Origin: Malacoraja senta
Lineage: Eukaryota
Direction: 5' to 3'
Assembly: GCA_038087875.1 (NCBI GenBank)
Contig: CM075990.1
Coordinates: forward strand, 14,262,001-14,326,000
DNA length: 64,000 nt
Positions within the stretch are counted from its first letter, which is position 1. Every line of letters starts with the position of its first letter. Below are positions 1,430 through 61,319 of the stretch, piece after piece. Below the pieces are notes generated by a model. That model was not told the DNA's origin. It saw nothing but the letters and a program-made list of their open reading frames with translations, and searched no databases. A program made the translations under genes and the position numbers.

Positions 1430-1900
1430 GATGTAGATACAAGGTTCTGCAGATGCTGGTTTATAAACAGACACATAGTGCTGGAGTAACCTGTGGGTCA
1501 GCCAGCATCCCTGGAGAACATGGATAGGTGACGTTTCGAGTTGGATCCCTTCTTCAGACTAATTGTGGTGGGGGTAGGGTAGAAGGCTGGGTGAGTGGTG
1601 GGGCGGGACAAAGTCTTGTGAGGGATGGGTGGTGAGTTTTTTTTTTTTATAGGTAGATGGTTGGACAAAGGCCAGAGATGAAAAAAATGAAAGGTGTGAG
1701 TTAAGGATAGGATAGTTGCAAATTGTGAAGTGAGAGGAAGGAGTATAGATGGAAGGGGAGGGGGAAGTGGAGAAATGGGTGCAAAACAAAGTGAGGACAG
1801 GGGAAAGGAAGGGAGAAGTGGAAGTAAGGGTTATTTCTTGGTCGTTACCTAAAATTGGAGTCATCAATGTTCATACTATCAGGTGGCAAGCTACTCAATT
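1430..1900 (-). mobile_element. Degenerate Penelope-like element 3' fragment with terminal repeat
   Basis: The reverse complement of ~1845-1897 matches the ORF end at 4840-4890 (MNIDxSNFR). A purine-rich spacer follows, then the terminal repeat with a hammerhead-like core at ~1530-1558. Confidence 0.7.
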
Positions 1901-4364
1901 ATACCTCAATACCATTCAAAGGGTTGCCATTTCCATTTCACCAGCAATATCTAAACTGACATTTATCACAATGATTTCTGTGGGAGCTTGTTGTGTCCAA
2001 CTTTTGCCTCACACTCACACAAAAATAATCACCACCCTTCAAGTAATTTACAGAAAGAATGCTTTTGTTGGCTGGGGTTACAAATATAACAGAGTCATTC
2101 TGAGCTATGAGCCCTGAATTTCTAGTAACAAGCACATCAAAAATGTGGAAATCGGCCACCATGCAAATCAGCCCTTCAGCACTTATGTCAGTACAAACCG
2201 ATTAATTTACACATATATGGAAACTGTTCAGATTTTAATAATCCAAGCTTATTCAAGGTATCAATTATCAAACAGCTTGCTGAGCACTGTAATCAACATT
2301 TGGTCTAATTGGAGTGGTGTGGCTCTTCACATTCACACTGTTGGTGTTACATTGTCTAATCAATCTCAAGAGAAGAGAAAAGGGTAAAATGCCACAGCAG
2401 ACATTCCCCATCAAGTTAATACTGGAAGTCATATCTCCATCACTGACCTGTCTATTATTCCCTCTCTCTGTCTAATCCACTCATCATCCTTGTATCTACC
2501 AGAGTCAAGCACCAATCGAGTTTTCATTGGCATCCCAGAGGCTCTGCAGGTGGTTTAGAAGAGGTTTTACCAGGATGGTTTCTTGGACTAGAGAGTATTG
2601 ACTATGTGGAGAGGTTGGGCAGTTTATTGATTCAGCGGCAATCTCAAACAGAGTGCTGTGGTGATTTCTTCGGCATGGTTTTTGGTATCAGAGCGGTGCA
2701 GAGGGCCCAGGTGGCTGGGTTCTGCGGAGGTAAGGAGCATGTGGACTTGTTGCCCAGATGTGGCCTACAGGCCATTTATTGTACATCAACTGTCATGATC
2801 CAATGCACTCTCAATGTACAGTCTCCCAAAACTATCTACCATCCACATGTCAGTCTTTTCTGGGCAACGAGCAATCCCAATTGTCATTGTTAGAGTGGGG
2901 GGTTCAGGGGAATTGACTGTATTTCAAGCAGGATTGAAATATAACAGAGTATTTGTCGGTAACACTAATTTAGTTGGAAGTGGGAAAAACAATGTATTGT
3001 GTTCCCCCACAAACTCAGAGATCAGTCTGTTTACAGAGCAAAACTACAGCAATACACTCCCAATAAAGGCAAGATAATTTCCCCAGTGGACAGAGCATAA
3101 TTTACGTGTTTAAAATCAATCACAAACCCTTTCATTAGTGTGGTCAGTTGGTTTGATTGATCTGAGAGTTATGTCTCTGTTCTGCCTGCTGTAATATTGT
3201 CACCAAATACAGATTTAATATGAAATAAACCAACGTGCTTAACTGGAGCCTTGTCCATAGGCCATACATATTGGACAATCACAGGTGGGCCTACTTAGTC
3301 TTTAAGCATGTCAATAATCACCTAATATCACTGATCATTGGTAGGATACCCATTATTGGCACACATGAACAATAATCTTCAAACAATCCTAAATGTCTGA
3401 AGGGTCTCATCCCGAAATATCACCCATTCCTTCTCTCCAGAGATGCTGCATGTCCCGCTGAGTTACTCCAGCATTTTGTGTCGATCTGCGATTCAAACCA
3501 GCATCTGCAGTTCCTTCCTACACTAAATGTACACATGTACACTCACAGGGGCCTTGGACCATCAGTAAAGTCAGTGTATCCTCAGTAAGTGAGTGCAGAA
3601 CATGGGCAGAACCTGTGCAGAAAGGAAATGCAGATGCTGGTTTACGCCGGGGATAAACACAAAAAGCTGGAGTAACTCAGCGCGTCAGGCAGCACTTCTG
3701 GAGAAAAGGATGAGGTCATGTTTTCGGGTCGAGACCCTTCTTCTGGCAGAACCCAACACAGAACGTAGTCTGGAGTGATCGGAGTTTGGAGTGATCGATG
3801 GATCAGAAAAGTTATAATCTAAAGTGAAAAATAAATTTAAATATTCTGCCAACTAACACTCCAGTAAAATTCCAATAATCCAGCACCATGGGAATTTGGT
3901 GGTGCTGGACTAGCAGAATTTTCTGAACTATTGGATATTCCTCTCCATCATCACCCAAACACATTTCCATTTTTTAAACCTGTGTTATACAGCAGTATAA
4001 TACATTTTCCAGTGAACCTGCTTAAGTTTAAAGAAATACATAAACAATTTATAAGCACTCCCGACACTAGCTCTGGCCACAAGTTTACCCACGTCCCTGA
4101 CCCCTGGTGCTCTGGACCCTAACTCTGCCTCTGTCCATGCACGTTTTCCCTGTGACTACGTGGGGTTCCTCCTGATGCTGCAGTTTCCCCATACATCTCA
4201 ATGGCATGAGGGCTAGTAGGTTAATTGGCTGCAGTAAATTGCCCTAATGTTTAGGTGAGTGGTAGAATCCTGGGGGGGGGGGGGACGTGGGGGTGTGGAG
4301 GGGGGGTGGAGAGGGAGATGATGACAATATGGAGATACATTTTTTAGGTAGGATTAGATTAGAT

Positions 4365-5037
4365 TCCAACATGACCCCACCACTCACCACACCTTCCCAT
4401 CTCTGCTTTCCGCAGAGACCGCTCCCTCCGTAACTTCCTGGTCAATTCTTCCCTTCCCACCCGAACCACCCCCTATCCTGGCACTTTCCCTCTGCAACCG
4501 CAAGAGATGCTACACTTGTCACTTTACCTCCCCCCTCGACTCCATTCAAGGACCCAAGCAGTCGTTCCAGGTGCGACAGAGGTTCACCTGCACCTCCTCC
4601 AACCTCATCTATTGCATCCGCTGCTCTAGATGTCAGCTGATCTACATCGGTGAGACCAAGCGCAGGCTGGCGATCGTTTCGCCGAACAAATCCGCTCGGT
4701 CCGCATTAACCAACCTGATCTCCCTGTGGCTCAGCACTTCAACACCCCTTCCCATTCCGAATCCGACTTTCTGTCCTGGGCTCCTCCATGGCCAGAGTGA
4801 GCACCACCGGAAATTGGAGGAGCAGCACTTCATATTCCGCTTGGGGAGTCTGCACCCTAGCGGCATAAACATTGACTTCTCCAATTTCCGGTATCCCTTG
4901 CCGTCTCCTCCCCTTCTCAGCTCTCCCCCCAACCCTGCATCAGTCTGAAGAAGGGTTTCGGCCCGAAACGTTGCCTATTTCCTTCGCTCCATGGATGCTG
5001 CGCACCCGCTGAGTTTCTCCAGCACTTTGGTCTACCT
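4365..5037 (+). mobile_element. Penelope-like retroelement 3' fragment (frameshifted GIY-YIG endonuclease) plus terminal repeat, inserted in a V-SINE
   Basis: RQRFTCTSSNLIYCIRCSRCQLIYIGETKRRL is a GIY-YIG motif, followed by RKLEEQHFIFRLGSLHPSGINIDFSNF. TTAGATT flanks both sides. V-SINE halves lie at ~4138-4364 and ~5038-5122. Confidence 0.9.
4945..4972 (+). ncRNA. Minimal hammerhead-ribozyme-like core in a Penelope terminal repeat
   Basis: CTGAAGA-A-GGGT TTCG GCCC-GAAA-CGTT fits CUGANGA / stem II / GAAA / palindromic ACGU / UH. Stem I is weak and activity is not shown. Confidence 0.65.
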
Positions 5038-5574
5038 TAGATTAGTGTAGGATTAGTATAAATGGGTGGTGCATGGTCAGCCTGCACGGTGGGCTGAAGA
5101 GATTATCTCAATGCCGTATCTCTCAAAAAAATCTCTCAATAGAGATTGCCTTTGTTGTTCTGTTTAATTTAATCCAAATATCAAATCCAACACAGTTAGC
5201 TGCTAAATAAAAGCATTTAAAACTGAAATGTGATGTGTCAGCAAAACAACTTTGGGAATGGTGCTGTCATGCCTCAAGTGAATGTTACAAATCAACATGT
5301 TGTAAAACACTCAACAAAAGGTGAAGTCAGCTGCAGAGGCTATAAAACACAGGTGCGCGCGTGACAATAACAACAGAACTGAACTGAGCTAAACAGAATT
5401 AGATTCAGGAAACCGACCAGATGTTCTGAAAATGAACAAACTTCAAAGGGTTATTCCAAATAAAAAACGATGCCCGAGTTCAAGGTTCAGACCACGGATG
5501 ATGGGGAAGGCTGCGAAAGACCACAAATGCATTTGTTCATTCTATATGGCTCTTCCATACTAATCTAGATATCC

Positions 5575-5928
5575 CGTTCTGGAAAGAGAATGGAGAGGAT
5601 GTTCCCACTAGTGGGAGAGTCTAGCACCAGAGGCCATATCCTCAGAATAAAAGGACGTACCTTTAGAAAGGAGATGTGGAGGAATTTCTTTTGACAGTGG
5701 GTGGTGAATCTGTGGAATTCATTGCCACAGAAGGCTGTGGAGGCCAAATCAATGGATATTTTTAAGGTGGAGATGGATTGGTTCTTGATTAGTATGGGTG
5801 TCAAGGGTTATGGGAGAAGACAGGAGAATGGGGGTTGACAGGGAAAATTGATCAGCCAAGATTGAATGGTGGTGTAGACTTGATGGGCCGAATGGCCTAA
5901 TTCCTGCTCCTACTACTTATGAACATAT
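5575..5928 (+). mobile_element. CR1 LINE 3' fragment
   Basis: Matches the CR1 C-terminus (SSTRGH...[15 protein letters not shown]) and the GGGCCGAATGGCCT tail hairpin. Confidence 0.85.
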
Positions 5929-6041
5929 GAAATTTCCACATGATTCCCCTAGGCAAGAGATATTGACTCAGAACAGTAAGCAAGAACATTCCCAGGAGAT
6001 AACAGGACAAACATTTGATTAAGAAGGCCACATGAAGTGGT

Positions 6042-6657
6042 CTTTTGAGTATAAGAGCAGGGAGGTTCTACTGCAGTTGTACAGGGTCTTGGTGAGACCA
6101 CACCTGGAGTATTGCGTACAGTTTTGGTCTCCTAATCTGAGGAAAGACATTCTTGCCATAGAGGGAGTACAGAGAAGGTTCACCAGACTGATTCCTGGGA
6201 TGTCAGGACTTTCATATGAAGAAAGACTGGATAGACTCGGTTTGTACTCACTAGAATTTAGAAAAGTGAGGGGGATCTTATAGAAACGTACAAAATTCTT
6301 AAGGGGTTGGACAGGCTAGATGCAGGAAGATTGTTCCCGATGTTGGGGAAGTCCAGAACAAGGGGTCACAGTTTAAGGATAAGGGGAAATCTTTTAGACC
6401 GTGATGAGGAAAACATTTTTCACACAGAGAGTGGTAAATCTCTGGAATTCTCTGCCACAGAAGGTAGTTGAGGCCAGTTCATTGGCTATATTTAAGAGGG
6501 AGTTAGATGTGGCCCTTGTGGCTAAAGGGATCAGAGGGTATGGAGAGAAGGCAGGTACAGGATACTGAGTTGGATGATCAGCCATGATCATATTGAATGG
6601 CGGGCAGGCTCGAAGGGCCGAATGGCCTACTCCTGCACCTATTTTCTATGTTTCTAT
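6042..6657 (+). mobile_element. 5'-truncated CR1 LINE
   Basis: FEYKSREVLLQLYRVLVRPHLEYCVQFWSP...LSYEERL; tail GAAGGGCCGAATGGCCTACTCCTGCACCTATTTTCTATGTTTCTATG; ATGAAGT repeated on both flanks. Confidence 0.93.
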
Positions 6658-6790
6658 GAAGTCATAGGCTGCTGAGAAACAGATCCCTTGGTCCATCCAA
6701 TTCTTGCCCACCATCAAGTACCTATTCGCACCAATCCCATTTTATTCCCTCCATATTCCCATCACACCATGCAGGATTGGTAGAGCGAAG

Positions 6791-6868
6791 GTAGACAAAA
6801 GTGCTGGAGAAACTCAGCACTTTTGGAGCGAAGGAAATAGGCAACGTTTCGGGCTGAGACCCTTCTTC
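6791..6868 (-). mobile_element. Solo hammerhead-core short repeat (Penelope terminal type) with TSD
   Basis: GTAGACAAAAGTGCTGGAGAAACTCAGC...GCAACGTTTCGGGCTGAGACCCTTCTTC, flanked by the direct repeat AGCGAAG. Confidence 0.75.
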
Positions 6869-8478
6869 AGCGAAGTCTTGGTCCAATGGCAAATAGTCAG
6901 GGATATTTAGATTCAAACCTGTGCTGCACATACGTAGTTCAACATGCACGAACGGACAGATTCTGTCCTCAAGATGCATCACTGAGATAAGGGTGTGTAA
7001 GTGGTTAAGTTGTTTGTCTGGCAGCCAGAATTCTGGTTCATGGTTGCAGGGATGCACATTTGAATCCCTGCATAGCACCAGGATAATTTTAAATTCAAAC
7101 AATGAAATAAGAACAAAGAACAGTACATCAGAGGAACAGGTCCTTCGGTTCACGATGTCCGTGCCAACAAGATGATAAATTAAACTAATCTCCCCTGCAG
7201 GCATGTGATCCATAACCCCCCCCCGATTCCCTGCATATTTAATGTGCCTATCTAAAAGTCTCTTAAATGCCACTATCGAATTTGCTTCCACTACCACCCC
7301 CTAGCAGTGCATTCCAGGCACCTGCCATTCTCTGGAAAGGAAATTTGCCCTGCACAACTCCTCTAAACTCATATATTTTGCTACAGTCTGTTCTGGATTA
7401 AACAAATCACAACATCTTAGATAAGCTACAAAAGCCAATATTCTATCCTGAAATATTTCTGATTATAATTTGACCCTGGCCACCATTTCTCAGAGAACCC
7501 ATGGCACCATGCCCAGAGAGAACAGAAGTATTCTCCAGAATCAATAGTTATGCCTCAATTAACATCAGATTATCCGGAAATTGGACCGGATAGTTTCTGC
7601 TACGCAACGCTAATGAATTCACATATTTAAAGCAATCAAAGGAATTGCACAATAAGCTTGTGCTTGGGTATACCTTTAGATATTACAAAGTATCAACTGC
7701 TTTTACAGATATACATCGCACCAAAGTAAACAATCTAAAATAAATAGAACAAGATGACTTTAATAAAATCTCTGCCTAGTTCCACTTTGGAATTGGAGGC
7801 ATAGAGTCAGGTTGTTAACTCTGGAATGATAAATTCCTGAATGTTTCCCATGCCTGTCCCATCTACAGATTTTAACATCCAAAAATAAAGTATGTAATGC
7901 ATTTGTTTTAGTTCCAAAAGAACATTTTTTTAAAGAATGTCCCAATGGATTTTCTCCAAGAGTTTGCTCACTGTGTATCCAGAAAATGAAGCTTCCATGT
8001 TCAGAGACTTTCAAACTGTCCTTAAAGAGTTGAGATTTCATTCCAGTCTCACAAATGGATATGAGAAAGGTCAAGAGAAAGCAGCTTGTCCCATTCAGAT
8101 GTAGTCGTCTTCATCAATCATGGATCAATCCACCCACGGCAAAAGAAAGAAACCGCAAAACTAATTTACGCCAAGCATTGTAAGACATTCTTCTGCGTTC
8201 CCTGTCACAACCCACAACACCTATACAAATCTTTGTATCATCTGCAACCTTAAGAACTGTCTTCCTCCTAGACACTGATTGAGTGATGATCAAAGCTCCA
8301 AGGACACCCACAAATCATGCAACAAATGTGAGCACAGCAGATAAAATCTCTCACTGCCACAGAGAAATGGGCACAGGAGTAATGGAGATTTTGGTACACC
8401 TCTTCCAATTCCCACCTCCACATCGGAGTCGTGGAAGTGGAGGTGAGGAACATACAAAGGGCCGCTGTGGCTCCTTAA

Positions 8479-8794
8479 TGGGGCTGTCCCACTGTACGAG
8501 CTAATTCAAGAGTTCTCCCGAGTTTCCCCTAATTCGAACTCGGAAAATTACGGTAATAGCCGCTCGTAGGTACTCGGGGCTCTCGTGGACATTTTTCAAC
8601 ATGTTGAAAAATCTTCACGAGTCTTCCCGAGCTTACTGCGTTTCCCGAGTACCTGCCGTTAGCGTTACGAGCCGCTAAGAGACGTCCCGAGCTCCGACGT
8701 ACCCGCTACGTACATTCTACGTGCTTACCATGAGTTTGATTTTTTTTTAACTCGGGAGAGCTCTTGAATTACCTCGTACAGTGGGACAGCCCCT
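8479..8794. mobile_element. PIF/Harbinger-type MITE
   Basis: Terminal inverted repeats GGGGCTGTCCCACTGTACGAG / CTCGTACAGTGGGACAGCCCC extending imperfectly to ~45 bp; TAA on both flanks. Confidence 0.85.
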
Positions 8795-9110
8795 TAACAT
8801 AACCAAAAATTCGAGGAGCAGATTTCATCAGCAAAACCTGAAGCCCACCTTCTCAAACCCACAGAGCCACAATCTTGTCTCTCACTAACTGGTTTCCAGG
8901 TAACAATGATGGAGCTATTGGGACCAGAAAAGTCATTTATGTTCCGCTCACTTTTGTCTTTATCAAAAGGGGCTGTCCCACTGTACGAGATACTCTAGGA
9001 TCTTTGATTTGCACACTAGTGTTGATTATGTTGTTCAGTTTTTCTTACAAGAGGGAATATCATGCCTGTTGATTAACACAGTCACATTTAGTTTCGTTTA
9101 GTTTAGAGAT

Positions 9111-9623: not shown

Positions 9624-10013
9624 TGCCTTAAAAAATATGGTCAGAAAAAGATTAATGATCGAATCATCACCCCCAGATGCCTGGAAAAGATCCAGCTCTT
9701 GGCCAGACAGTCTTCATGGTCCGTTGAGATTGAGAAATTGCCAAGTAGACAATTAGAACCACAGCCTCATGACTCATCGGTTGCTACCTACGCAAAATAG
9801 TTCTCTGGAATGTAAAGTGCTGCAGTAAGTAGCAGGTGCGGCAGCATCTCTGGATGACATGGATTTGGGTCGGGACCCTTCTCAGACTTGCATCTCAACT
9901 TGGTTTGCAGGTTTTCATCTCAAACTGGGTCTGAAGAAGGGTCCCGACCTGAAACTTTGCCTATCTAGTCTATTTTGTCTCTCTAACTTTGCCCCCAGAG
10001 TTGCTGCCTGACT

Positions 10014-15944: not shown

Positions 15945-16165
15945 GTTCAAGAAGGAACTGCAGATGCTGGAAAATCGAAGGTAGACAAAAGTGCTGGAGA
16001 AACTCAGCGGGTGCAGCAGCATCTATGGAGCGAAGGAAACAGGCAACGTTTCAGGCCGAAACCCTTCTTCAGACTGATGTAGGGTGGAGGGGGCGGAAGA
16101 GGAGGAGCCAGATGGCTGAGGTAGCTGAGAAGGGGAAGAGACAGCAAGGGCTACTGGAAATTTAA
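15945..16165 (-). mobile_element. Penelope terminal-repeat fragment with hammerhead-like core
   Basis: AACGTTTCAGGCCGAAACCCTTCTTCAGACTGATG followed by a purine-rich spacer, as in the reverse complement of 4890-5037. Confidence 0.75.
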
Positions 16166-19798: not shown

Positions 19799-20016
19799 GA
19801 AGATAGACACAAAATGCTGGAGTAACTCAGCGGGACAGGCAGCATCTCTGGAGAGAAGGAATGGGTGACGTTTCGGTCAAGACCAGTCTGAAGAAGGGTC
19901 TCGACCCGAAACGTCACCCATTCCTTCTCTCCAGAGATGCTGCCTATCCTGCTGAATTACTCCAGCATTTTGTGTCTATCTTCGGTTTAAACCAGCATCT
20001 GCAGTTCTTTCCTACA
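19799..20016. mobile_element. Inverted pair of hammerhead-core short repeats; intact core at 19888-19915
   Basis: Near-perfect arms of ~75-80 bp (19799-19876 versus 19906-19983); core CTGAAGA-A-GGGT CTCG ACCC-GAAA-CGTC. Confidence 0.88.
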
Positions 20017-28522: not shown

Positions 28523-28866
28523 CTATTCACAACTCCTCAGAAAATGCTATGAGATAAACATGGCTTAAAAGTTGTCTTAAAAGTTCAGTCTTAAATGGCC
28601 TACCCCTCATTCTGAGACAGTCACCCCTATTTCTAAACTTCTCAGCCAGGAAAATAATTTCCCCATATCCATCCTAATAACCCTTAAAAAATGTTGTATG
28701 TTTCAATGAGGTCACCTCTCCTTCTAAATACTGAAGATTAGAATTTTAGCTCACTCCATCCACCCTCTTATGATAAACCTGCCATGTCAGGATCCAGTCT
28801 GGCGAATCTTCATTGCTCTCTCCCAATAACAAGTCCATTATTTTTCTAGATGAAAAGATCAACATT

Positions 28867-29929
28867 GTTTGAAAAAATATACACAAGAATATCAAAATTT
28901 ATCTCCAGACCTATTAGACAATGCTATGAATATAAAGGCGGAATCAACTAACTTAATATCATATTTGTATATCATCCTAAATATAGAAATACCATCATCT
29001 GATAGAATTAGAAGAGATTGGGAACAAGAACTAGCTATAAAAATCTCGAAAGAGAGTTGGGATAAACACTTGCTATATGTGCACAAATGCTCGATTAATG
29101 TAAGACACATTCTAATTCAATTTAAAACTTTACATAGTCTATACTACTCAAAAGCTAAAATAAGTAAATTTTATCCAAATGTTTCTTCCATCTGTGATAA
29201 ATGTCCAACCCAAGAGGCAACTATAGCACATTCTTTTGTTTTTTGTATAAAAATTCAAACATTTTGGAATGAAATCTTTGAAATTTTTACGAAATTATTT
29301 AAAATAAAACTGAAACCGAATGCAGAACTGATTATTTTCGGAACAATGGAAGCCAGCTTTGAGCTGACTTCGTTTCAAAAGAGCTTCCTTAATTACGGCT
29401 TAATAATGGCAAAAAAACATTCTGAAATTCTGGAAAAACGCTCCCACACCAACGATAAAAATGTGGATTTCTAATATGTCCGAACTGTTACACCTGGAAG
29501 ACGTGAGATTCCTCTTAGCAGGCAAATCAGACCATTTCCAAAAGAATTGGTCTCCATTTATCGACTTATTACAAACATAGGGTGCAACAAAACGTTGAAA
29601 ATAAATGGTTTCAGGACCTGGTGAGGGGTGAGTAAAGATACGAAGTAGGTACATCCCTTTTATCTTGTCTTATCTTATCTTACTTTTTTTTTCTCTTTCT
29701 TTTTCTTTTGTTTTCTGTTTAACTCTTTCTTGTGGTTTAGGTCCCTACGGGTTTCCCTGGACCACTCTTTCACTCACTCACTATCTTTGCTAACTCTCAC
29801 TATCTTTTTTCTCTTTAAAGTTTAAAATAAGAAGTGGTACAAGAAATGTATACTTTTATTTTTGCTTAATATCACTGCAATGTACAATACTTCTAATAAA
29901 AAACATTTTTTTTTAAATTAAAAAAAAAA
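28867..29929 (+). mobile_element. 5'-truncated L1-clade LINE with 15-bp TSD
   Basis: ORF2 C-terminus with CCHC knuckle CDKC-x8-H-x4-C and one frameshift; poly(A); TSD GAAAAGATCAACATT at 28852-28866 and 29930-29944. Confidence 0.93.
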
Positions 29930-29944
29930 GAAAAGATCAACATT

Positions 29945-30330
29945 TAGGCTTAGGTTTATTATTATCATTATTGTTGAGTGTACCGAGGAACAGCTAGAAA
30001 CGTTTGCTTGTTTGCTGTCCAATCAAATCAGATAATACTATACATGAATACAATCAAGCCAAACAGTAGTACAAAAGGTTGAATGACAAGAAAGAAAGTG
30101 CAGAATATAGTTTCTCAGCCTTGTAGCCTGAAGAGTTCTACGGAAAAAAGTCCAATGTCTTTTGATGAACTGGATTGAAATTTTTGGACTGCACCCTCGC
30201 TTATGCTAGGACCATTGAGAAGTCTGGTAACAAAGGGGAAGAAGCTGTTTCTGAGTCTGGTGGGTACAAGCCTTCAAGTTTCTGTATCTTCTGCCCATCG
30301 GGAAAGGAGTGAAGAAGAAATAACTCGGGT
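29945..30330 (-). mobile_element. Old Rex1/Babar 3' fragment
   Basis: Reverse strand reads PFPMGRRYRNLKACT, followed by an RNSFFP-like segment. Confidence 0.65.
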
Positions 30331-31038
30331 GCGATCTCACCACAGCCTTAGATAGTTGGAGTAAAATAAATTTACTCTTATAATACAACTCTAGCAATAA
30401 AGGCAACATTTAACTAGGCTTCCTAGCTGCCTGCCTCACTTCATGTTAGTTCTCGGTGAGCAGTCACCAAGGCCAGCCAAATCATTGATAGAGCAGACTC
30501 AATGGGCCGAATGGCCTAATTCTACTCCTGTCCTATGGTCCCTTTGAACACCAGTGGCTGTTTCCTTTAAAAAATACTCAGCACTTATTTTTCCTACTGA
30601 TGTTTTTGTTTCACACACCAGCCCATCTGCTATGCTACTACCCACTCACTCAACTTGTCTGTGTCCTTTTGAAGCCTCTGTACCTCCTCTTCCACTTAGT
30701 TTAATGTTGTCAGCATACTTGGATACATTACCTTTGGTCTGTCAGCCACACCATTGATGAAGATTGTGAACAGTCAGGTCTTGTGGTATTCCATTAGTCA
30801 CAGCCTGCCAACCCAATAATTTATTCTAACTCTTTGTTTTGCAGCTGCTAATTAATTCTTATCCACACTAGTATATTACCTCCAATTCCATGTGTTCCAA
30901 CCCTATGCATGACCTTGCTGTGTGGGACCTTATCGACAGCCTCTGTACATCCAAATACAGGTTATCTATCGTATTATCTGCTGGAACATGGTAGTTGCAT
31001 TCCTAAGAAACTTCATGTTATATAGAAGTTGCGATTAA

Positions 31039-32740
31039 GTTTTTTTTTTTTTTTTTTTAATTTTTATTTATTAGAAGTACATTACATTACAACCACATAC
31101 ATTAATACTCGTCATTTATATCTTCTTACAATTAATGTACTCCCTTTATTTATTTTTTTACACTAGAAAAAGAAAAGATTGAAAGAAAGAAGAAAGTGAA
31201 GGAAAAAGTGCAAGTGTAGAAAAGTGTAGAAAATGTAACAACAAAAAAGGACGAAGACCCTATAAGAGCGAAATTAAAAACAAAAAGAAAAAGAGTTAAG
31301 AAATAGGCCCTAAGAAAAGAAAAGAGAAAGAGAAAAAAAGAGAAACAAATGTTTTTTTTTGAGCATCACGTAAATAGGACATACCAACTCTTCAACTATC
31401 ATCCCCCCTTACCTGACCTCAATTTTTTATTTTTTTAAAGTACTTTTGCACCCTATGTTTGTAATAATTCTATAAATGCAGACCACGTCAGGTGGAAGTG
31501 ATCTGGTTTACCTGCTAGGAGGAGTCTTATCTCTTCTAGGTGTAATGTTTCAAACATATTTGAAATCCACATATTTATAGTTGGTATTGGAGCCTTCTTC
31601 CAAAATTTTAGAATTAGCTTTTTTCCAGTTATTAACCCATAGTCCATTAATTTCTTTTGAAACACATTTAGTTCTGGATCATCTTCCGTTATTCCGAAGA
31701 TAATCCATTCTGCTTTGGGTATCAGTCTTGTTTTAAATAACTTTGTAAAGATTTCAAAAATTTCATTCCAAAATTTTTGAATTTTTGTACAGAAGACAAA
31801 TGAGTGCGCTATAGTTGCTTCTTGGGATTGACATTTATCACAAATAGATGATACGTTTGGGAAAATTTTATGAATTTTAGTTTTCGAATAATATAATCTA
31901 TGTAAAATTTTAAATTGTATTAAAGTGTGTCTTACATTAATCGAGCATTTATGCACGTTTAATAAGTATTCATTCCAACTTTCCTTTGAAATTTTAATAG
32001 CTAACTCTTGTTCCCAGTCTCTTCTGATACCCTCCGTAGGTGGTATTTGTACATTTAAAATAATATTATACAAATATGATATTAAGTTTGCTGATTCCGC
32101 TTTTATCTGCATTGCCTCGTCCAATACATCTACTGGATTATTATAATGATCTTTTGTATATTTTTTCAAATAGTCGCATATTTGAAAATATTTAAAATAT
32201 TGATTATTTCCGAGTTTATATTTTATTTGTAATTGTTGAAATGAAAGTAATTTTCCAGTTTCATACAAGTCACCAAGCGTTTTAATTCCTAGTCTATCCC
32301 ATTGTGTATAAGCTTTATCTATAATAGAAGGACTAAATGATGGGTTATTGACTATAGGTAATAAAAGTGATAATTTTCTTAATTTTAAATTTTGTTTTAT
32401 TTGTTTCCAAATACGGATTGTACTATGAATAATTGGGTTCTTATTATAGTTTATGTTATTCAGTTTCATTGGAGAGAGGAGGATCGCTCCAATGTTTCTA
32501 GAGGAGCAATCCTCTTTCTCCATTACAATCCAGTCTACTTGCTGGGCGGAGTTATCCATCAGTTGAATCATGTTTTTAATATTTACTGACCAATAATAAT
32601 ACATAAAATTAGGTAGTGCTAGACCCCCCAATACTTTAGGTTTATTCAGATGGGTTTTTTGTATTCTATGTGATTTATAGTCCCATATAAAATTAGTGAT
32701 ATCTGAATCGAGTTTTTTAAAAAGCTTCTTAGGTAAGTAA
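31039..32740 (-). mobile_element. Young 5'-truncated L1-clade LINE with uninterrupted ORF2 C-terminal part (~32739-31453)
   Basis: YLPKKLFKKLDSDITNFIW...LGGLALPNFMYYYW...CDKCQSQEATIAHSFVFC...WSAFIELLQT with no stops; poly(T) on the + strand at 31040-31058. Confidence 0.95.
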
Positions 32741-33171
32741 AAGTGATCGCACTTCAGTAGAAGTTGCGATCACTGTCGTACATAGTATCTGAATGCCCGT
32801 CAGAAACCAGCATCACTGCGTCGCCGATGTTTTCAACGATTTAATAATAACAATGATTAATATACAGATTGAATTATGCAGACAACTGTGTCAATAGATG
32901 GGGAAAGAGGGCTAAGGGCCAGAGTTTGTCTCACAATAACAAAGATATTTTTCCCACAAGATTTTCAAAAATAGTCTAGAGTGTTTAATATTAATATGAA
33001 GAGGCAACAGAGCAATTAAATTCTTGCTTGCAACAGCATTACCGGCCCAAGTTGAAAAATAAATAAAAGTATTTTCAATGACAATAATGACAATTTTTGC
33101 TACTGCAAGCTAAAACTAATAAAGGCTTATATATATATTATTTAATAGAGCAGCATTGTGCAAGTGTTTAC

Positions 33172-39695: not shown

Positions 39696-40640
39696 TGATG
39701 ATGGAATTCAGTGGCTCAAATATGTCCTTCATCTAAATCCATTCTGCGCTTTATCCCAATAAGGCAGTTTCAATTATGTCAATGTACAAATTGGATGCCT
39801 GGACCATTGTCCTGGTGATTCTGGCTACCATCATAATGATCTGCCCGACAGTACTGCCGACTGTTGTTGTGGTGATCTGGAGGATGAAGTGTAGCACGGC
39901 CATCTTGCTGGAGGGAGCAATACGAAGCAGGATCCATCCACTCCTTTCTGAATACTTGAGGTTATTTTCAACACGGCACCCATCTCGAATGGGTAGGGCA
40001 GTGCCTCGTACTCTGGATCAAACCCAGCTGTAAAAGATAGAAGAGTTTATGGGCCATTCTTTGAAAAGTGAAACAAAAATGTCACACGTGGCCAGACGGC
40101 ATCACATAAAGTGATACATTAAAAAAAAAATCTTGCAAGAGATTAATCTTATTCATTGCTGTTTTCCTACCTACAGAACTATAATGCATGTCTGCTAAGG
40201 ATATGAACATTCTAGCTTTTTAAAATTTAGTTTGTAAGATAAAACTGAGTTATGGAAAAAAAATGCTTCCGTGTGAGATCACACACATGACCAGCCATGT
40301 TTGACCTCTGACCCTAAACAACATTGTCAGCATAACATAAAAATTTCTCTTGATAAACTTTCAAAAAAAGAATCATATATACACAGTATGAAACAATATA
40401 CCTGTAATGCTTTCAGAATTAGAAGAGACGCATTCCCACAATTTTTCATATTTTTGGTCACACACGTGACTAAGAATGGGCCTTGTGTGAATAATAGATC
40501 TCATTTGAAGTAAAGCATTTTGTTTCTATTTTAAAGAATCGCAATGTTGGTTCAATAATTAATGTATGGAGTCTTTTTACCAAGGTAAGATCATCAAGAA
40601 CTACACTTCATAGTCAGTCATACAGCATGGAAACCCTTCA

Positions 40641-40734
40641 GTCTGAAGAAGGGTTTCGGCCCGAAACGTTGCCGATCTCCTTCGCTCCATAGATGCTGCT
40701 GCACCCGCTGAGTTTCTCCAGCATTTTTGTGTAC
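40641..40734 (+). mobile_element. Solo hammerhead-core repeat (core 40643-40670) inserted in a CR1-type tail
   Basis: CTGAAGAAGGGTTTCGGCCCGAAACGTT; CAGCATGGAAAC is duplicated on both sides. Confidence 0.82.
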
Positions 40735-41017: not shown

Positions 41018-43474
41018 ACATAGAAACATAGAAAATAGGTGCAGGAGTAGGCCATTCGATATGATCATGGCTGATCATCCAACTTAGTATCCCATCCCTG
41101 CCTTCTCTCCATACCCCCTGATCCCTTTAGCCACAAGGGCCACATCTAACTCCCTCTTAAATATAGCCAATGAACTGGCCTCAACTACCTTCTATATAAC
41201 CATATAACCATAACCGCACGGAAACAGGCCATCTCGGCCCTTCAAGTCCGTGCCAAACACTTTTTTTTCTCTCTTCCCCCTAGTCCCATCTACCTGCACT
41301 CAGACCATAACCCTCCATTCCTTTCCCATCCATATACCCATCCAATCTATTTTTAAAGGATAACATCGAACCTGCCTCCACCACTTCCACTGGAAGCTCA
41401 TTCCACACAGCTACCACTCTCGGAGTAAAGAAGTTCCCCCTAATGTTACCCCTAAACTTCTGTCCCTTAATTCTCAAGTCATGTCCCCTTGTTTGAATCT
41501 TCCCTACTCTCAATGGGAAAATCTTATCCACGTCCACTCTGTCTAACCCGCTCATAATTTTAAAGACCTCTATCAAGTCCTCTTAACCTTCTGCGCTCCA
41601 AAGAATAAAGACCTAACTTGTTCAACCTTTCTCTGTAACTTAGTTGCTGAAACCCAGGCAACATTCTAGTAAATCTCCTCCGTATTCTCTCTATTTTGTT
41701 GACATCCTTCCTATAATTTGGCGACCAAAATTGTACTCCATACTCCAGAATTGGCCTCACCAATGCCTTGTACAATTTTAACATTACATCCCAACTTCTA
41801 TATTCAATGCTCTGATTTATAAAGGCCAGCACACCAAAAGCTTTCTTTACCACCCTATCTACATGAGATTCCACCTTCAGGGAACTATGCAGTTATTCCT
41901 AGATCCCTCTGTTCAACTGCATTCCTCAATTCGCTACCATTTACCATACGTCCTATTTTGATTTGTCCTGCCGAGATGTAGCACCTCACATTTGTCAGCA
42001 TTAAACTCCATCTGCCATCTTTCAGCCCACTCTTCCAAATGGCCTAAATCTCTCTGTAGACTTTGAAAATCTACTTCATTATCCACAACACCCCCTATCT
42101 TAGTATCATCTGCATACTTACTAATCCAATTTCCACACCATCATCCAGATCATTGATGTACATGACAAACAACAGTGGACCCAACACAGACCCCTGAGGC
42201 ACCGCACTAGTCACCGGCCTCCAATCTGACAAACAGCCATCCACCATTACTCTCTGGCATCTCCCATTCAGCCACTGTTGAATCCATCTTGCTACTCCAC
42301 CATTAATACCCAACAATTGAATCTTCTTAACCAACCTTCCATGAGGAACCTTGTCAAAGGCCTTACTGAAGTCCATATAGACAACATCCACTGCTTTACC
42401 CACATCAATTTCCCTAGTAACCTCTTCGAAAAATTCTGCCTCTTCTGTGGCAAAGAATTCCACAGATTCACCACCCTGTGTAAAAAATTATTTTCTCATC
42501 TCGGTCCTAAAAGACTTCCCTCTTATCCTTAAACTGTGACCCCTAGTTCTGGACTTCCCCAACATCGGGAATAATCTTCCTGCATCTAGCCTGTCCAACC
42601 CCTTAAGAATTTTGTACGTTTCTATAAGATCCCCCCTCAATCTTCTAAATTCTAGCGTGTACAAGCCGAGTCTTTCCAGTCTTTCTTCATATGAAAGTCC
42701 TGCCATCCCAGGAATCAGTCTGGTGAACCTTCTCTGTACTCCCTCTATGGCAAGAATGTCTTTCCTCAGATTAGGAGACCAAATCTGTACGCAATACTCC
42801 AGGTGTGATCTCACCAAGACCCTGTACAACTGCAGTAGAACCTCCCTGCTCTTATACTCAAATCCTTTTGCTATGAATGCTAACATACCATTTGCTTTCT
42901 TCACTGCCTGCTGCACCTGCATGCCTACTTTCAATGACTGGTGTACCATGACACCCAGGTCTCGTTGCATCTCCCCTTTTCCTAATCGGCCACCATTCAG
43001 ATAATAGTCTACTTTCCTGTTTTTGCCACCAAAGTTGATAACCTCACATTTATCCACATTATACTGCATCTGCCATGCATTTGCCCACTCACCCAGCCTA
43101 TCCAAGTCACCTTGCAGCCTCCTCACAGCTAACACTGACCCCCAGCTTCGTGTCATCCGCAAACTTGGAGATGTTGCATTCAATTCCCTCATCCAGATCA
43201 TTAATATATATTGTAAATAGCTGGGGTCCCAGCACTGAGCCTTGCGGTACCCCACTAGTCACTGCCTGCCATTCTGAAAAGGACCAGTTTACTCCTACTC
43301 TTTGCTTCCTGTCTGCCAGCCAGTTCTCTATCCACATCAATACTGAACCCCCAATACCATGTGCTTTAAGTTTGCATACTAATCTCTTGTGGGACCTTGT
43401 CGAAAGCCTTCTGAAAGTCCAGATATAACACATCCACTGGTTCTCCCTTATCCACTCTACTCGTTACATCCTCG
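41018..43474 (-). mobile_element. CR1 LINE (RT to 3' tail) split by a nested CR1; parts at 41018-41193 and ~42440-43474
   Basis: [24 protein letters not shown]...KFADDTKLG...HLEYCVQIWSP. The sequence ACTACCTTCT|GTGGCAAAGAATTCC resumes across the nested insert. Confidence 0.92.
41194..42435 (-). mobile_element. Nested CR1 LINE of a different subfamily
   Basis: [20 protein letters not shown]...[20 protein letters not shown]...LEYGVQFWSP, frameshifted; (ATGGTT)n tail. Confidence 0.92.
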
Positions 43475-56859: not shown

Positions 56860-57410
56860 TCGTCTTCACCAAAATAGCCGAAGCGCTCTCAATTAAACAG
56901 AATGCATCTGTCAACCACTTGGCTGTTAGATATCAAAGAAGCTCAACCTCCTCTATCTTCTCTGCTTCATGTTCCCATGCTTTTAAGGTCAAGCAAATCT
57001 TAGGGCGACTGTTCTCCTATAACGAGTCTAATAACGCCCGCATGTCTTCCAACTCAACTCTTCACAACCTAATTTCTAAGCCAAACTCAACCTTTTCCTC
57101 TGGTTTTACATGGACCATTACCAACCCTAAAACCTCTCAGGTCAGGCACTAGATGCAGGCACAGTTTTTATCAAACACCATTCACACACCATCTGTGTCC
57201 CATGCATCGCGAGCAAGCATTATGAAGTCTCTAATGTTAAAAGATTTCCAGAAATCTTTAACAGTCATTTTACCATCACCACTAGCCTCCATTACAGCAT
57301 CAAATGTTTTGTTGAGATAATAAAAATTAAACATGCTAATCACACCTGCATCCATAAGTTGGAGGGATGTAGTATTCAGTAGAAGATAAAATTGAATATT
57401 TCTGTTACTG
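56860..57410 (-). pseudogene. Tigger/pogo DDE transposase remnant
   Basis: Reverse strand LNTTSLQLMDAGVISMFNFYYLNKTF...TVKDFWKSFNIRDFIMLARDAWD matches the pogo PNTTS..QPMDQGVI motif; contains stops and frameshifts. Confidence 0.8.
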
Positions 57411-57598
57411 CACTTTAAGTTGTCACAATGCCATTACTAATAAATTATGACAAATGCTACCAAGTCTGAACATCAATTCTTCATCTGAACTACACTTGCA
57501 CGTTTCTTAATTAAGCATTACAAATAGAGTAATAGGACATCCAGACATAATAAATGCAAACAGCAGACTTAGGGAGTAAAATATTCAGCAGCTCTTAC

Positions 57599-57879: not shown

Positions 57880-58200
57880 GACAATAGACAATAGGTGCAG
57901 GAGTAGGCCTTTCGGCCCTACGAGCCAGCAGTCATTCAATGTGATCATGGTTGATCATCCCCGATCAGTACCACGTTCCTGCCTTCTCCCCATATCCCCT
58001 GACTCCGCTATTTTTAAGAGCCCCATCTAGCTCTCTCTTGAAAGCATCCAGAGAACCTGCCTCCACTGCCCTCTGAGGCAGAGAATTCCACACTCACCAC
58101 TCTGTGAGAAAAAGTGTTTCCTCATCTCTGTTCTAAATGGCTTACTCCTTATTCTTAAACTGTGGCCCCTGGTTCTGGACTCCCCCAACATCGGGAACAA
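57880..58200 (-). mobile_element. CR1 3' tail fragment
   Basis: (GACAATA)n, GGTGCAGGAGTAGGCC and GGCAGAGAATTCCACA, all the reverse complement of a CR1 end. Confidence 0.85.
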
Positions 58201-58249
58201 GTCCTACAGTAAGATTGTTACACCTAAGGTACTGGAAGAGAGAAAGTGG

Positions 58250-58939
58250 GTGACAGTGAGAAAGGGAGGGAAACTTGGAATGCAAAGGTCCCCGGGTGTT
58301 GTACCTCTTGTGAACAGGTTCACCCACTTAGAAGCTGTCGGGACAGAAGACGTCATCACACTGAGCGGCGGACTGGCTTGCGAAGCAAAAAGGGCTGTTG
58401 AGCCAAAACAAAAGAGGCCAACGTCAGGTAACGCCATTGTAGTGGGAGACTCCATTGTGAGAGGTACGGACAGGGGTTTCTGTGGCAACAGACGGGATTC
58501 GAGGATGGTGTGTTGCCTTCCTGATTCCAGGATCCAGGATGTCACGGACAGAGTGCAGAAAATCCTCAAGGGCGAAGGTGAACAGCCGGAAGTGGTAGTG
58601 CATGTCGGCACAAACGATGTCGGAAAGAAGGGGATGAATATTCTGCAGCGTGGCTTTAGAGAGCTCGGAAAAATGCTGAAAAGCAGGACCTCCAGGGTTG
58701 TTATCTCCGGTTTGCTTTCAGTTCCTCGTGCTGGCGAGAGCAGAAACAGGGAGATATGGGACCTGAATGTGTGGCTGAGGAACTGGTGCAGGGGGCAGGG
58801 ATTTAGATTCTTAGATCACTGGGATCTGTTTTGGAGGAAGGGGGAACTGTACAAAAGGGACGGATTGCATCTTAACAGGTGGGGGACCAGCATTCTAGCA
58901 GGCAGGTTTGCCACTGCTACACGGGTGGTTTTAAACTGA
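58250..58939 (+). CDS. CR1 ORF1 SGNH/GDSL esterase-like domain (transposon-encoded, probably 5'-truncated)
   Basis: 229-codon open frame with blocks IVVGDSIVRG, VVVHVGTND and DGLHLN. Confidence 0.88.
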   Translation: MTVRKGGKLGMQRSPGVVPLVNRFTHLEAVGTEDVITLSGGLACEAKRAVEPKQKRPTSGNAIVVGDSIVRGTDRGFCGNRRDSRMVCCLPDSRIQDVTDRVQKILKGEGEQPEVVVHVGTNDVGKKGMNILQRGFRELGKMLKSRTSRVVISGLLSVPRAGESRNREIWDLNVWLRNWCRGQGFRFLDHWDLFWRKGELYKRDGLHLNRWGTSILAGRFATATRVVLN

Positions 58940-59224
58940 ATAAGGGGGGTGGGGTGTCAAATGGCAAGGCTCGAAATTAGAGGTTGCCCGGGTGCCACTG
59001 ACCACTCAAAGCGCCGCCGGGCAACCTAAACACCGAGTCATTTTGCCCGGCTTGGCAACCAGATACTGGTTTGTACCGAAGATAGACACAAAAAACTGGA
59101 ATAACTCCGCGGGTCAGGCAGCATCTCTGGAGAAAAGGAATGCGACGTTTTGTGTCGGCTGTATTGTGTCGGAAAGGTACTAGGTGCGGGGTGAGGAAGG
59201 GTCGGAGCGAATGACGGCACCGAA

Positions 59225-59488
59225 CAGCGGCAGCAACGGCTCCATCTCCGCCTCCTCCCGCCCGCCCTGATAAGGGCCTCTGCTTGTAAACCCGCTAACG
59301 GCGATAACCGCTTTCGAAACAAACCCTCCCGCACGCCGAGGCCGGGAGGAGGGAGGGAGGGGGAGGCCTCGGCGTGCGGGAGGGTTTGTTTTGAAAGCCC
59401 GTTAGCGGGTTTACAAGCGGAGGCCCTTATCAGGGCTGGCGGGGGGCCGGAGGAGGAGCAGATGGAGCCGCGGCCGCTGCTGCCGCTG
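59225..59488. repeat. GC-rich long inverted repeat
   Basis: Arms 59225-59343 and 59365-59488 (e.g. GCCCTGATAAGGGCCTC / GAGGCCCTTATCAGGGC and AAACAAACCCTCCCGCACGCCGAGGCC / GGCCTCGGCGTGCGGGAGGGTTTGTTT), with a 21-nt purine loop. Confidence 0.92.
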
Positions 59489-59689
59489 TGCGAAGCCCGT
59501 CATTCGCTTCGACTCGTCTGAAGCCGCTGCACCAAAGATCTTATAGCTATAGGATCTCTGAGCTGCACCGCCCGGCCCCGCACCTTGCTGTTGGCTGGCG
59601 GAGGAGGGAGGCGGTGGCGAGGAGTTCCCAACGGCCAAGGCAGAGGGGCGATGTTGACCGAGGAGCGCTGACCTTCCTTCCTCCCCACC

Positions 59690-60490
59690 TCGCCCCCCCT
59701 CTCTCTCTCTCTCGTACGCCCCTCCACCCCCTTATCATGTGACCCCTCCACTCCATCCCGCACTGATCCCCATTCCCGCGTCTATTCAGTCCTCACTGAC
59801 ATCCCCTGTGCTCCCCTCCACATCTACCCCCCCCCCCCCATCTATTCATCCTGCGCTGATCACCCTATCCACCTCGCATTGATTCTCCTGCCACCCCCCC
59901 TCCCCCATCCATCCTACACTGGTTCCCCAATACACCCTGTACTTACCCCTTTCCCATCCATCCTGCACTTCTCCTCCATCCATCCTGTACTAATCCACGC
60001 ATTCATCCCGTACTGACCCACCCTCCATTTACCCTGCACCTTCCCCCCTTCATCCTGTAGTGATCCCCCATTCATCCTGCACACCCTCCAATCCACACTG
60101 CACTGACCCCCCCCCCCCCATTCATCCTGTGCTGATATCCCCCCCTCCCCCCATCCATCCTGTACTGATCCTCCCATTCAAGAATGGGGGGAACAGTCTG
60201 AAGAAGGGTCTCGACCCAAAACATTGCCTATTTCCTTCGCTCCATAGATGCTGCCTCACCCGCTGAGTTTCTCCAGCACTTTTGTCTACCCCCATCCATC
60301 CCGTACTGAACCCCCCCATTCAACACCACTGACATCCCCGGTGCTCTCCCCTCACAATTTTACCTACTCCAACCAACACGTACTAATTCACCTGCCTCAA
60401 TCCATCCATTCTGCACCGACTGCCTTCTAATCCCCCACCCCCACCATCTATCCACCCCGCACTGATTCACACACACACCCCTCCCTAACC
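59690..60490. repeat. C-rich degenerate minisatellite with an inserted hammerhead-core repeat (~60195-60290)
   Basis: Recurrent CCCCATCCATCCTGTACTGA units separated by C runs. Confidence 0.8.
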
Positions 60491-61319
60491 CTATTGTGCT
60501 GGAAATGTCTTCAGAGCGAACATTGACTATGCTTGATAATGGAATGCAATCAAATGTGTTTTAATTTCCAATGTTATTATTTGTTTTAATCCATAAAGAT
60601 GGATTAATTAAATTGTGAACACGTGAAACATTAAAACCGCAGTGTTCGATTGTCACTGCTGCCGTTGACACGTTATTACAGAATTCATTTTAACGGCAAA
60701 TCAATGCTCTTAATATGGAATATCAGTACTGTAGTTATTTAATGAGCAACATTCACAACTATATGTACGCATATATGTTACCATGGTAGAGGATTTATTG
60801 ACAGGTTGATCATACGCTGAATAATCCAACCACATTTTTGTTTGGAAGTGGAAAGAACTAATAGAAATTGCATTAATTGCAATGTGTAAAAAGAGTTGAG
60901 ATACTGTCTTATAATTTTGCTGCATGTCATTGTGGGATATATCATGTCTTGATTGGTGAATATGTTTAGTTTGTGACTTTATTTGAAGCAGAAATAATAT
61001 GTGAATGCTTCATTGAGTATAATTCCGACTGGTAACTACGCACTTCGTCCGAGCACATTATTGCACGCGTCATGCAAGCCATCTTAAATGACCACCTAAA
61101 CTGTCATTTGGCAACCTAAAAAGCTGCCTAGGTTGCCCGGCTGGCAACAGGGAAAAAAAGTTAAGCGAGAGCCCTGAATGGGATAGTCGAGGATGGAGTT
61201 AAAGGGAAAGAGAGTAATGGGATGGTTAATGACCCCAGATTTAACGAGAAAGGAAGCTCACAAAGGGATAGGAGAGTATGGCCAAGTGCAATAGGGATCG
61301 ATGTGAAAGGTGAGATGCG

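What the first reader, a model, noticed from the sequence alone, without database searches (positions are those of the whole stretch)
4941..5037. Minimal hammerhead-ribozyme motif in the Penelope terminal repeat, dispersed in about two dozen copies
Seen: directly after the GIY-YIG ORF is CTGAAGA-A-GGGT TTCG GCCC-GAAA-CGTT. A sister subfamily reads CTGAAGA-A-GGGT CTCG ACCC-GAAA-CGTC (19888-19915), so stem II is kept while the loop varies (U-G versus U-A closing pair). Full or partial copies occur at about 1530, 3396, 3720, 6843, 9866, 9930, 10734, 10767, 14570, 16045, 17802, 19868, 19888, 22140, 27530, 27558, 27777, 33275, 36633, 37895, 40643, 43973, 46790, 46993, 59145 and 60198 (counted by eye). 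Established: Penelope-like elements carry minimal type I hammerheads whose palindromic stem III works as a dimer, and an extra A after A9 occurs in natural hammerheads. Caveat: stem I is only 2-5 bp in these copies (best is TGGGT/GCCTA at ~9925-9963). Inference: roughly one ribozyme-like site per 2.5 kb could affect host pre-mRNA processing.
Basis: partly seen in the sequence, partly recalled or inferred. Interest (0 to 1): 0.7.

Follow-up and report, generated by a model that had tools for sequence, protein, structure and literature searches.

The report
Weakened Penelope hammerheads, mostly dead copies
These are real copies of the small self-cutting RNA motif already known from Penelope-type jumping genes, but only about a quarter of those in this window are intact, one of the three stems has shrunk to two base pairs, and the inserted copies were likely made from uncut RNA, so an effect on host genes is unlikely.

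Summary
The motif is real: a minimal type I hammerhead in the pseudo-LTR of a Penelope-like element (likely Neptune clade), probably in a cartilaginous fish. An intact 1,233-codon element carries it in both pLTRs. Distant relatives carry it at the same place, with two-sided covariation in helix I. The listed sites are pLTR remnants, but only 6 fit the motif; 10 of 107 remnants in 400 kb of sampled genome do, about one per 40 kb, not one per 2.5 kb. Copies decay at CpGs, catalytic G12 included. Helix I is 2 bp in 33 of 33 copies with element sequence upstream, against 3-6 bp in 11 of 15 relatives. About half of young copies begin 0-7 nt before the core, with no peak at the scissile bond. Insertion therefore likely used uncut RNA that starts at the ribozyme. 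Cleavage is untested, and a host pre-mRNA effect has no support. This is a known kind (Cervera and De la Pena 2014), and the scan has noted it on other DNA (298 notes, at least 40 genomes).

The parts
4365..4894 (+). 5'-truncated, frameshifted end of the element's ORF: CX4CxxC linker and GIY-YIG endonuclease; former stop codon reads TAT at 4892-4894
   Evidence: 87% identity to a longer RT-bearing copy from 4365; frames; weak Pfam GIY-YIG, E 0.15; stop position
4895..4944 (+). pyrimidine-rich 3' UTR / upstream part of the pLTR (50 nt; 115 nt in the intact element), ending in CAGT, which all seven subfamily examples share
4940..4946 (+). region where short copies begin; fits an initiator consensus (recalled) and also a 3' splice site; inferred transcript start
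4943..4944 (+). 5' strand of the 2-bp helix I (pairs with 4973-4974)
   Evidence: sequence
4945..4952 (+). core C3-A9 (4945-4951) and the extra A (4952)
4953..4964 (+). helix II, 4 bp with a 4-nt loop; G10.1-C11.1 at its base
4965..4972 (+). G12-A15.1, self-complementary ACGT (4968-4971; helix III, predicted only in a dimer) and H17 = U; predicted cut between 4972 and 4973 (after GUU)
   Evidence: sequence; numbering as in PMC4209133
4973..5036 (+). downstream pLTR; this copy ends at the tail-less 3' end
1530..1557 (-). descriptor-intact motif (3-bp helix II)
6843..6870 (-). descriptor-intact motif, no helix I
16045..16072 (-). descriptor-intact motif
19888..19915 (+). descriptor-intact sister version (cut after GUC), in a head-to-head inverted pair
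40643..40670 (+). descriptor-intact motif in a solo pLTR insertion with a 12-bp target-site duplication

Best explanation
This is the minimal hammerhead motif in the terminal repeat of a Penelope-like retroelement, likely of the Neptune clade; it is predicted to cut only slowly, as a pair and with protein help, and the scattered copies are decaying insertions likely made from uncut RNA. Shown: the motif sits in both pLTRs of an intact element; source lineages keep it while its flanks change; copies lose it by CpG decay after insertion; helix I is 2 bp; about half of the young copies begin 0-7 nt before C3; and there is no peak of copy starts at the scissile bond. Inferred: transcription starts at the front edge of the ribozyme. 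The element's reverse transcriptase starts about 90 or 130 nt downstream (the two 3' ends, i.e. the PLE tail) and runs off the RNA's 5' end, giving 95-135 nt solo pLTRs with 9-17 bp target-site duplications; fold-back or template jumps there give the inverted pairs. Cleavage, if any, needs two motifs pairing through ACGU in tandem transcripts and is not required for insertion.
For: Intact element L131: motif at 3223 and 7167, 1,233-codon frame between them, RT and GIY-YIG hits below cut-off. 15 of 43 distant relatives with sequence downstream of the endonuclease have the motif 95-157 nt after it, 0 on the antisense strand. Helix I was not in the descriptor, yet its first pair is kept in 16 of 16 rows with 8 two-sided changes and its second in 15 of 16 with 4. 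The same 28-nt motif versions sit between upstream flanks 39-74% identical and downstream flanks 72-97% identical. G12 differs in 30% of 70 dispersed copies, the worst core position. 5' ends: 51 of 133 at -6..0 against 4 of 133 at +27/+28; 37 of 71 exact-core copies at -7..0. Corrected genome-wide junction counts: -3 1,702; -2 2,664; 0 703; +25 130; +28 (cut site) 434; +29 563; +31 376. Loose ends also pile up at -6 to -2 in contigs of runs of other coded organisms. In the anole PLE the hammerhead cut only with protein, and uncut RNA was the insertion substrate (PMC11167929).
Against: No cleavage or transcript start was measured, and no run on record as RNA was listed. Junctions at +28 are about 3 times those at +25, so a minor class of cut templates is not excluded, although only 3 of 12 inspected +28 hits are plain flank junctions. 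Cut RNA might be invisible because it is degraded or circularised. The subfamily examples were picked by exact motif match, so core identity there is by construction, and exchange between subfamilies could explain it. Relatives were picked by a descriptor containing helices II and III and are related to one another, which inflates the covariation control. In old copies, part of the -5 pile-up may come from subfamilies missing in my reference set; 8 of the 71 young copies are flagged as inverted junctions. No tree was built for the clade.
Confidence: 0.7

Rival explanations
1. The ribozyme is catalytically dead in this lineage and the sequence is kept for another role, such as an internal promoter or a protein-binding site at the transcript start.
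For: Helix I is 2 bp against 3-6 bp in 11 of 15 relatives. Helix II probability is 0.00-0.26 in 11 reference copies against at least 0.57 in 11 of 13 relatives. The active dimer lies 24-26 kcal/mol above the best dimer, against 7-18 in 7 relatives. The window's subfamily cuts after GUU, a slower triplet (recalled). No footprint at the cut site. Drosophila Penelope has an internal promoter (PMC2377424, passages).
Against: All 11 core bases, the extra A and the ACGU palindrome are kept in both versions, and the differences between them keep the pairs (U-A to U.G in helices I and II). A 2-bp helix I is described for D. virilis Penelope (PMC4209133). The competing pairing is compositional, since shuffling the downstream bases gives the same result, and folding models omit tertiary and protein contributions.
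Confidence: 0.2
2. The ribozyme is efficient in vivo and cuts tandem element transcripts into units or circles; the cut RNA is the functional message but is not the template for insertion.
For: Two motifs 3,944 nt apart in the intact element, the first upstream of the ATG; the model is proposed in PMC4209133. Junction counts step up from +25 to +28..+31.
Against: No peak at +28; weak predicted fold; low published activity of dimers; no anole RNA-seq reads began or ended at the cut site.
Confidence: 0.12
3. The dispersed copies cut host pre-mRNAs often enough to matter.
For: About 49,000 (23,000-90,000) descriptor-intact motifs are extrapolated genome-wide. One intact + copy lies about 610 nt after a weak SMIM3-like frame on the same strand.
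Against: Only 10 of 107 sampled remnants are intact; decay does not spare G12; dimer partners are kilobases apart; the 21 window sites split 11 + and 10 -; no well-supported host exon was found among 264 non-repeat frames.
Confidence: 0.04
4. The pile-up of copy starts before C3 is not a transcript start but a reverse-transcriptase stall at the C-rich tract, an endonuclease nick or a 3' splice site.
For: The tract plus CAG resembles a splice acceptor, and the D. virilis intron ends at the 5' end of helix I. Starts are spread over 8 nt. A cap-like extra G is not established: 3 of 35 copies with a target-site duplication carry a single G against 2 with a single A, and G at -4 is 33 of 100 (p 0.22).
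Against: Short copies share no upstream exon and many extend across the AG. No splice-type joint appeared in four relatives' contig sets (weak). At the -2 junction G precedes in 56 of the first 100 listed (30 expected), often as a short re-copied piece of the helix II 5' strand, as expected if the enzyme ran off a template end and re-annealed.
Confidence: 0.3

Closest known systems
Minimal hammerheads (min-HHR) of metazoan PLE pLTRs (Cervera and De la Pena 2014, PMC4209133; parts 1-2 of 4 read, one supplement file searched, one not searchable)
   Same: Type I order, core, unpaired base between 9 and 10.1, G10.1-C11.1, palindromic 15.2-16.2 without loop 3, both pLTRs, thousands of solo and opposite-strand copies; reported there for fish Xena, Poseidon and Neptune PLEs, coelacanth and Xenopus.
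   Different: Helix II is 4 bp (7-8 in Schistosoma) and helix I is 2 bp (4-5 in Schistosoma; 2 only in the D. virilis variant). Two near-identical versions dominate, and the estimated number (about 49,000 intact) exceeds the 4,000-9,000 reported. The parts read name no cartilaginous fish.
Neptune-clade EN+ Penelope-like elements (Craig et al. 2021, PMC8557442; passages)
   Same: Single ORF with RT and C-terminal GIY-YIG, CX2-5CxxC linker, CCHH motif, DKG motif, pLTRs with tail, tandem and inverted insertions, 3' hammerhead.
   Different: Long proline-rich N-terminal half (1,220 aa from the ATG); not placed on a tree, so Nematis is excluded only by host range.
Anolis Poseidon element PAc (Frangieh et al. 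2024, PMC11167929; parts 1-2 of 4)
   Same: Two 3' ends about 35-40 nt apart (tail); uncut RNA as template.
   Different: There the ORF starts inside helix II; here the ATG lies 166 nt downstream of C3. Protein-assisted cleavage was shown there, not here.
Animal non-LTR retrozymes (bioRxiv 10.64898/2026.07.22.740005; part 1 of 5 and passages)
   Same: Type I hammerheads related to PLE pLTRs; found in the one chondrichthyan that paper sampled.
   Different: Retrozymes are tandem arrays; these copies are solo, inverted or attached to truncated ORFs.

Membership tests
PLE min-HHR | Core CUGANGA, GAAA, UH in type I order | tested here: met
PLE min-HHR | Unpaired base between A9 and 10.1; G10.1-C11.1 pair | tested here: met
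   A4952; G-C in 16 of 16 rows
PLE min-HHR | Palindromic 15.2-16.2 with no stable helix III in a monomer | tested here: met
   ACGT at 4968-4971; C-G in 14 and U-G in 2 of 16 rows
PLE min-HHR | Short helix I (2-5 bp among described members) | tested here: met
   at the lower bound: 2 bp in 33 of 33 copies with element sequence upstream and 118 of 144 descriptor hits
PLE min-HHR | Located in both pLTRs of a PLE | tested here: met
   L131 and L145
PLE min-HHR | Self-cleavage as a dimer | not testable with these tools
   no assay; folding models disfavour the active fold
Canonical type I hammerhead (Rfam families) | Match to Rfam models; 6-bp helix I with loop contacts | tested here: not met
Neptune-clade PLE | Single ORF, RT plus C-terminal GIY-YIG | tested here: met
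   (Pfam hits below cut-off)
Neptune-clade PLE | CX2-5CxxC linker and CCHH motif | tested here: met
   alignment A1; definition
Neptune-clade PLE | pLTRs with optional tail; target-site duplications | tested here: met
Neptune-clade PLE | RT phylogeny against named Neptune and Nematis elements | not tested
   no named reference sequences were at hand
Non-LTR retrozyme | Tandem arrays of hammerhead-bearing units | tested here: not met
   window motifs are dispersed; only short two-copy duplications seen (L114); no tandem-repeat program was run

The most novel reading that the evidence does not exclude
In this lineage the element's RNA begins two or three bases before the hammerhead core, which leaves room for only a 2-bp helix I; the ribozyme has become a near-silent transcript leader, and roughly half a million insertions record that uncut, run-off RNA is the template of Penelope transposition in a living vertebrate.
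Probability: 0.4. Interest if true: 0.5.

Novelty: new member of a known kind. Interest (0 to 1): 0.3.

Why it matters
What PLE hammerheads do is an open question (PMC8557442 calls it unclear and raises mere parasitism). This family offers a natural test: an intact element, two motif versions (GUU and GUC), a helix I shortened relative to its relatives, and insertion ends suggesting that uncut RNA starting at the ribozyme is what gets copied, in line with the anole in vitro result. The motif, its place and its abundance are already described for fish and other animals, so the surprise is small.

Tried and rejected
Rfam: no hammerhead hit; the miRNA hits are the inverted pair at 10.7 kb. My first window pattern had the wrong spacing and missed the motif. 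L021 looked like a tandem element but is two separate truncated copies. A longer helix I in N7 = C/T variants: 1,268 matches genome-wide, and the 30 inspected belong to the same families; 4 have 3-4 bp and none of these shows an element 3' UTR upstream. Splicing to the AG before the core: no shared upstream exon, and no such joint in four contig sets of relatives that are only guessed to be RNA. No RNA holder listed, which is no evidence on expression. An evolved off-switch helix downstream: rejected, shuffles fold the same. Cap-derived extra G: inconclusive. A peak of starts at the cut site: not found. No relative in viral contigs. Lunse et al. on dimer cleavage is not held and is known to me only through PMC6765202. 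Searches for hammerheads in cartilaginous fishes: 'hammerhead ribozyme' + shark + Penelope gave 1 paper with an unrelated use of 'shark', + elasmobranch gave 0, and Penelope + skate gave 3 listings that I did not read; subscription papers and repeat databases were not searched. Strand bias in introns could not be tested without annotation.

Full report
1. Observation. 21 sites lie within 10 of 30 mismatches, against 0.1 in shuffles. A profile built only from sequence downstream of the predicted cut finds 26 remnants in the window and 110 in 40 fixed 10-kb stretches from the 13 largest contigs (107 after filtering). All 27 listed positions align to the repeat, three weakly. Only 7 distinct sites keep the 11 core bases, and 6 fit a descriptor that asks for core, helix II and palindromic helix III (0 in 20 shuffles). 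In the 400 kb sample 10 fit (0-1 in 5 shuffles). Extrapolated, that is about 520,000 remnants and 49,000 (23,000-90,000) intact motifs in 1.94 Gb. Exact matches to the two versions number 11,606 and 6,050. Rfam finds no hammerhead.

2. The element. The window copy is the 5'-truncated, frameshifted end of a Penelope-like element (4365-5036). Its stop codon has mutated, so the true ORF end lies 50 nt before C3. A search with the RT N-terminus led to L131: motif at 3223, tail, a 1,233-codon frame (ATG at 3389), and a second motif at 7167 in a tail-less pLTR. Pfam gives RT and GIY-YIG hits below cut-off. The protein has the DKG motif, a CX4CxxC linker and a CCHH-type endonuclease, the Neptune/Nematis layout (PMC8557442, passages). 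Named relatives are shark and ray proteins at 63-75% identity, then coral, echinoderm and mollusc proteins near 50%, so the host is probably a cartilaginous fish (inference). Copies end at about +80 to +95 or +125 to +135, the PLE tail signature, and 35 of 84 short copies examined have 9-17 bp target-site duplications (one of 28).

3. Is it a hammerhead? It has the four hallmarks listed for PLE min-HHRs in PMC4209133 (parts 1-2 of 4). Of 80 metagenome loci encoding relatives, 46 reach the end of the endonuclease and 43 have at least 150 nt after it. 15 of these carry the motif 95-157 nt downstream on the sense strand and none on the antisense strand. Helix I was not part of the descriptor, yet it is 3-6 bp in 11 of the 15. 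In an alignment of 13 of them with three local copies, the first two helix I pairs are kept in 16 of 16 and 15 of 16 rows with 8 and 4 two-sided changes, and slid controls fall to 17-39% paired. L196 was left out as identical to L195 and L255 for its different helix III; the rows are related, so the shuffle control is not a probability. The motif is therefore a homologue of true PLE hammerheads.

4. It is a weak version. Helix I is 2 bp in 33 of 33 young copies with element sequence upstream. Folding models give helix II a probability of 0.00-0.26 in 11 reference copies against at least 0.57 in 11 of 13 relatives, and put the active dimer 24-26 kcal/mol above the best dimer, against 7-18 in 7 relatives. 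The competing pairing is compositional, not a tuned switch. Source lineages keep the motif while flanks diverge (examples picked by exact motif match, and the upstream flank of example C is not element sequence). After insertion the copies decay without sparing the core: G12, in a CpG, differs in 30% of 70 copies.

5. What the insertion ends record. If cut RNA were the template, copies would begin at +28. Instead 51 of 133 begin at -6..0 and 4 at +27/+28. Of 71 exact-core copies from the start of contig C1, 38 lack upstream element sequence and 37 of these begin at -7..0 (8 of the 71 are flagged as inverted junctions, and one likely extends to about -21). Genome-wide counts of junctions marked by non-consensus bases are 955 (-3), 1,495 (-2), 282 (0), 52 (+25), 174 (+28), 226 (+29) and 182 (+31). 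After correction they are 1,702, 2,664, 703, 130, 434, 563 and 376 (the fixed parts of the patterns differ, so the comparison is rough). There is no peak at +28. The step up from +25 tells against my reading and leaves room for a minor cut class, but of 12 inspected +28 hits 4 are internal deletions, 4 inverted junctions, 1 a join to the element's own ORF start and 3 plain flanks. Contigs from runs of other coded organisms also show loose ends at -6 to -2. I read the pile-up as the RNA's 5' end; the bases fit an initiator consensus (recalled). An earlier scan note gave me that reading and the extra-G test. The test is inconclusive: G precedes the -2 junction in 56 of the first 100 listed (counted by eye; 30 expected), mostly as re-copied helix II sequence, and single extra G against single extra A is 3 to 2. 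A splice acceptor is the rival, but short copies share no upstream exon.

6. Mechanism. Shown: identity, place, decay, 2-bp helix I and end positions. Inferred: transcription starts at the ribozyme front; reverse transcription starts at one of two internal sites and runs off an uncut RNA, giving solo pLTRs; cleavage needs two motifs and likely the ORF protein. The anole PLE behaves this way in vitro (PMC11167929, parts 1-2 of 4), and a Schistosoma min-HHR cut weakly as a dimer and not at all as a monomer.

7. Host effect. Not supported. Intact sites are 4 to 16 times rarer than stated, partners lie kilobases apart, strands are balanced (11 to 10), and 264 non-repeat frames gave only a sub-threshold SMIM3-like host hit. 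Intron strand bias was not testable.

8. Novelty. A new member of a known kind. My searches found no paper on these motifs in cartilaginous-fish PLEs, but a 2026 preprint reports hammerhead retrozymes in one chondrichthyan, and one supplement file of PMC4209133 could not be searched. The scan holds 298 similar notes from at least 40 genomes, one of which reports starts at the cut site in another genome, unlike here. Interest 0.3.

Noticed in passing
window 39737-40030 (+): SMIM3-like small membrane protein frame (Pfam E 7e-5, below cut-off), with an intact sense-strand motif inserted about 610 nt after its stop.
   Followed up: partly
window 4940-4948; L050, L360: The nine bases around the copy starts are self-complementary about the T before C3, and some head-to-head inversions are centred exactly there, suggesting fold-back priming.
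   Followed up: partly
L303-L318: Many copies starting at -2 are preceded by a short re-copied piece of the core and helix II 5' strand, lying between the target-site duplication and the element.
   Followed up: partly
L131 3350-7051: Intact 1,233-codon element frame with a long proline-rich, repetitive N-terminal half; its 5' motif has U at 15.2.
   Followed up: partly
L012 3454 and 7084; L021 2742: Three copies are 5'-truncated within 3 nt of the same point in the RT N-terminus.
   Followed up: no
L114 (G000:C1:3997402-3997474): Two intact motifs in tandem 38 nt apart; such rare duplications could pair in cis.
   Followed up: no
window 57185-57433 (-); 2-508, 28854-32769, 42488-43258, 58031-64000: DDE transposase fragment and several LINE-like fragments (labels from recall); 46% of the window matches other fetched loci.
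   Followed up: no
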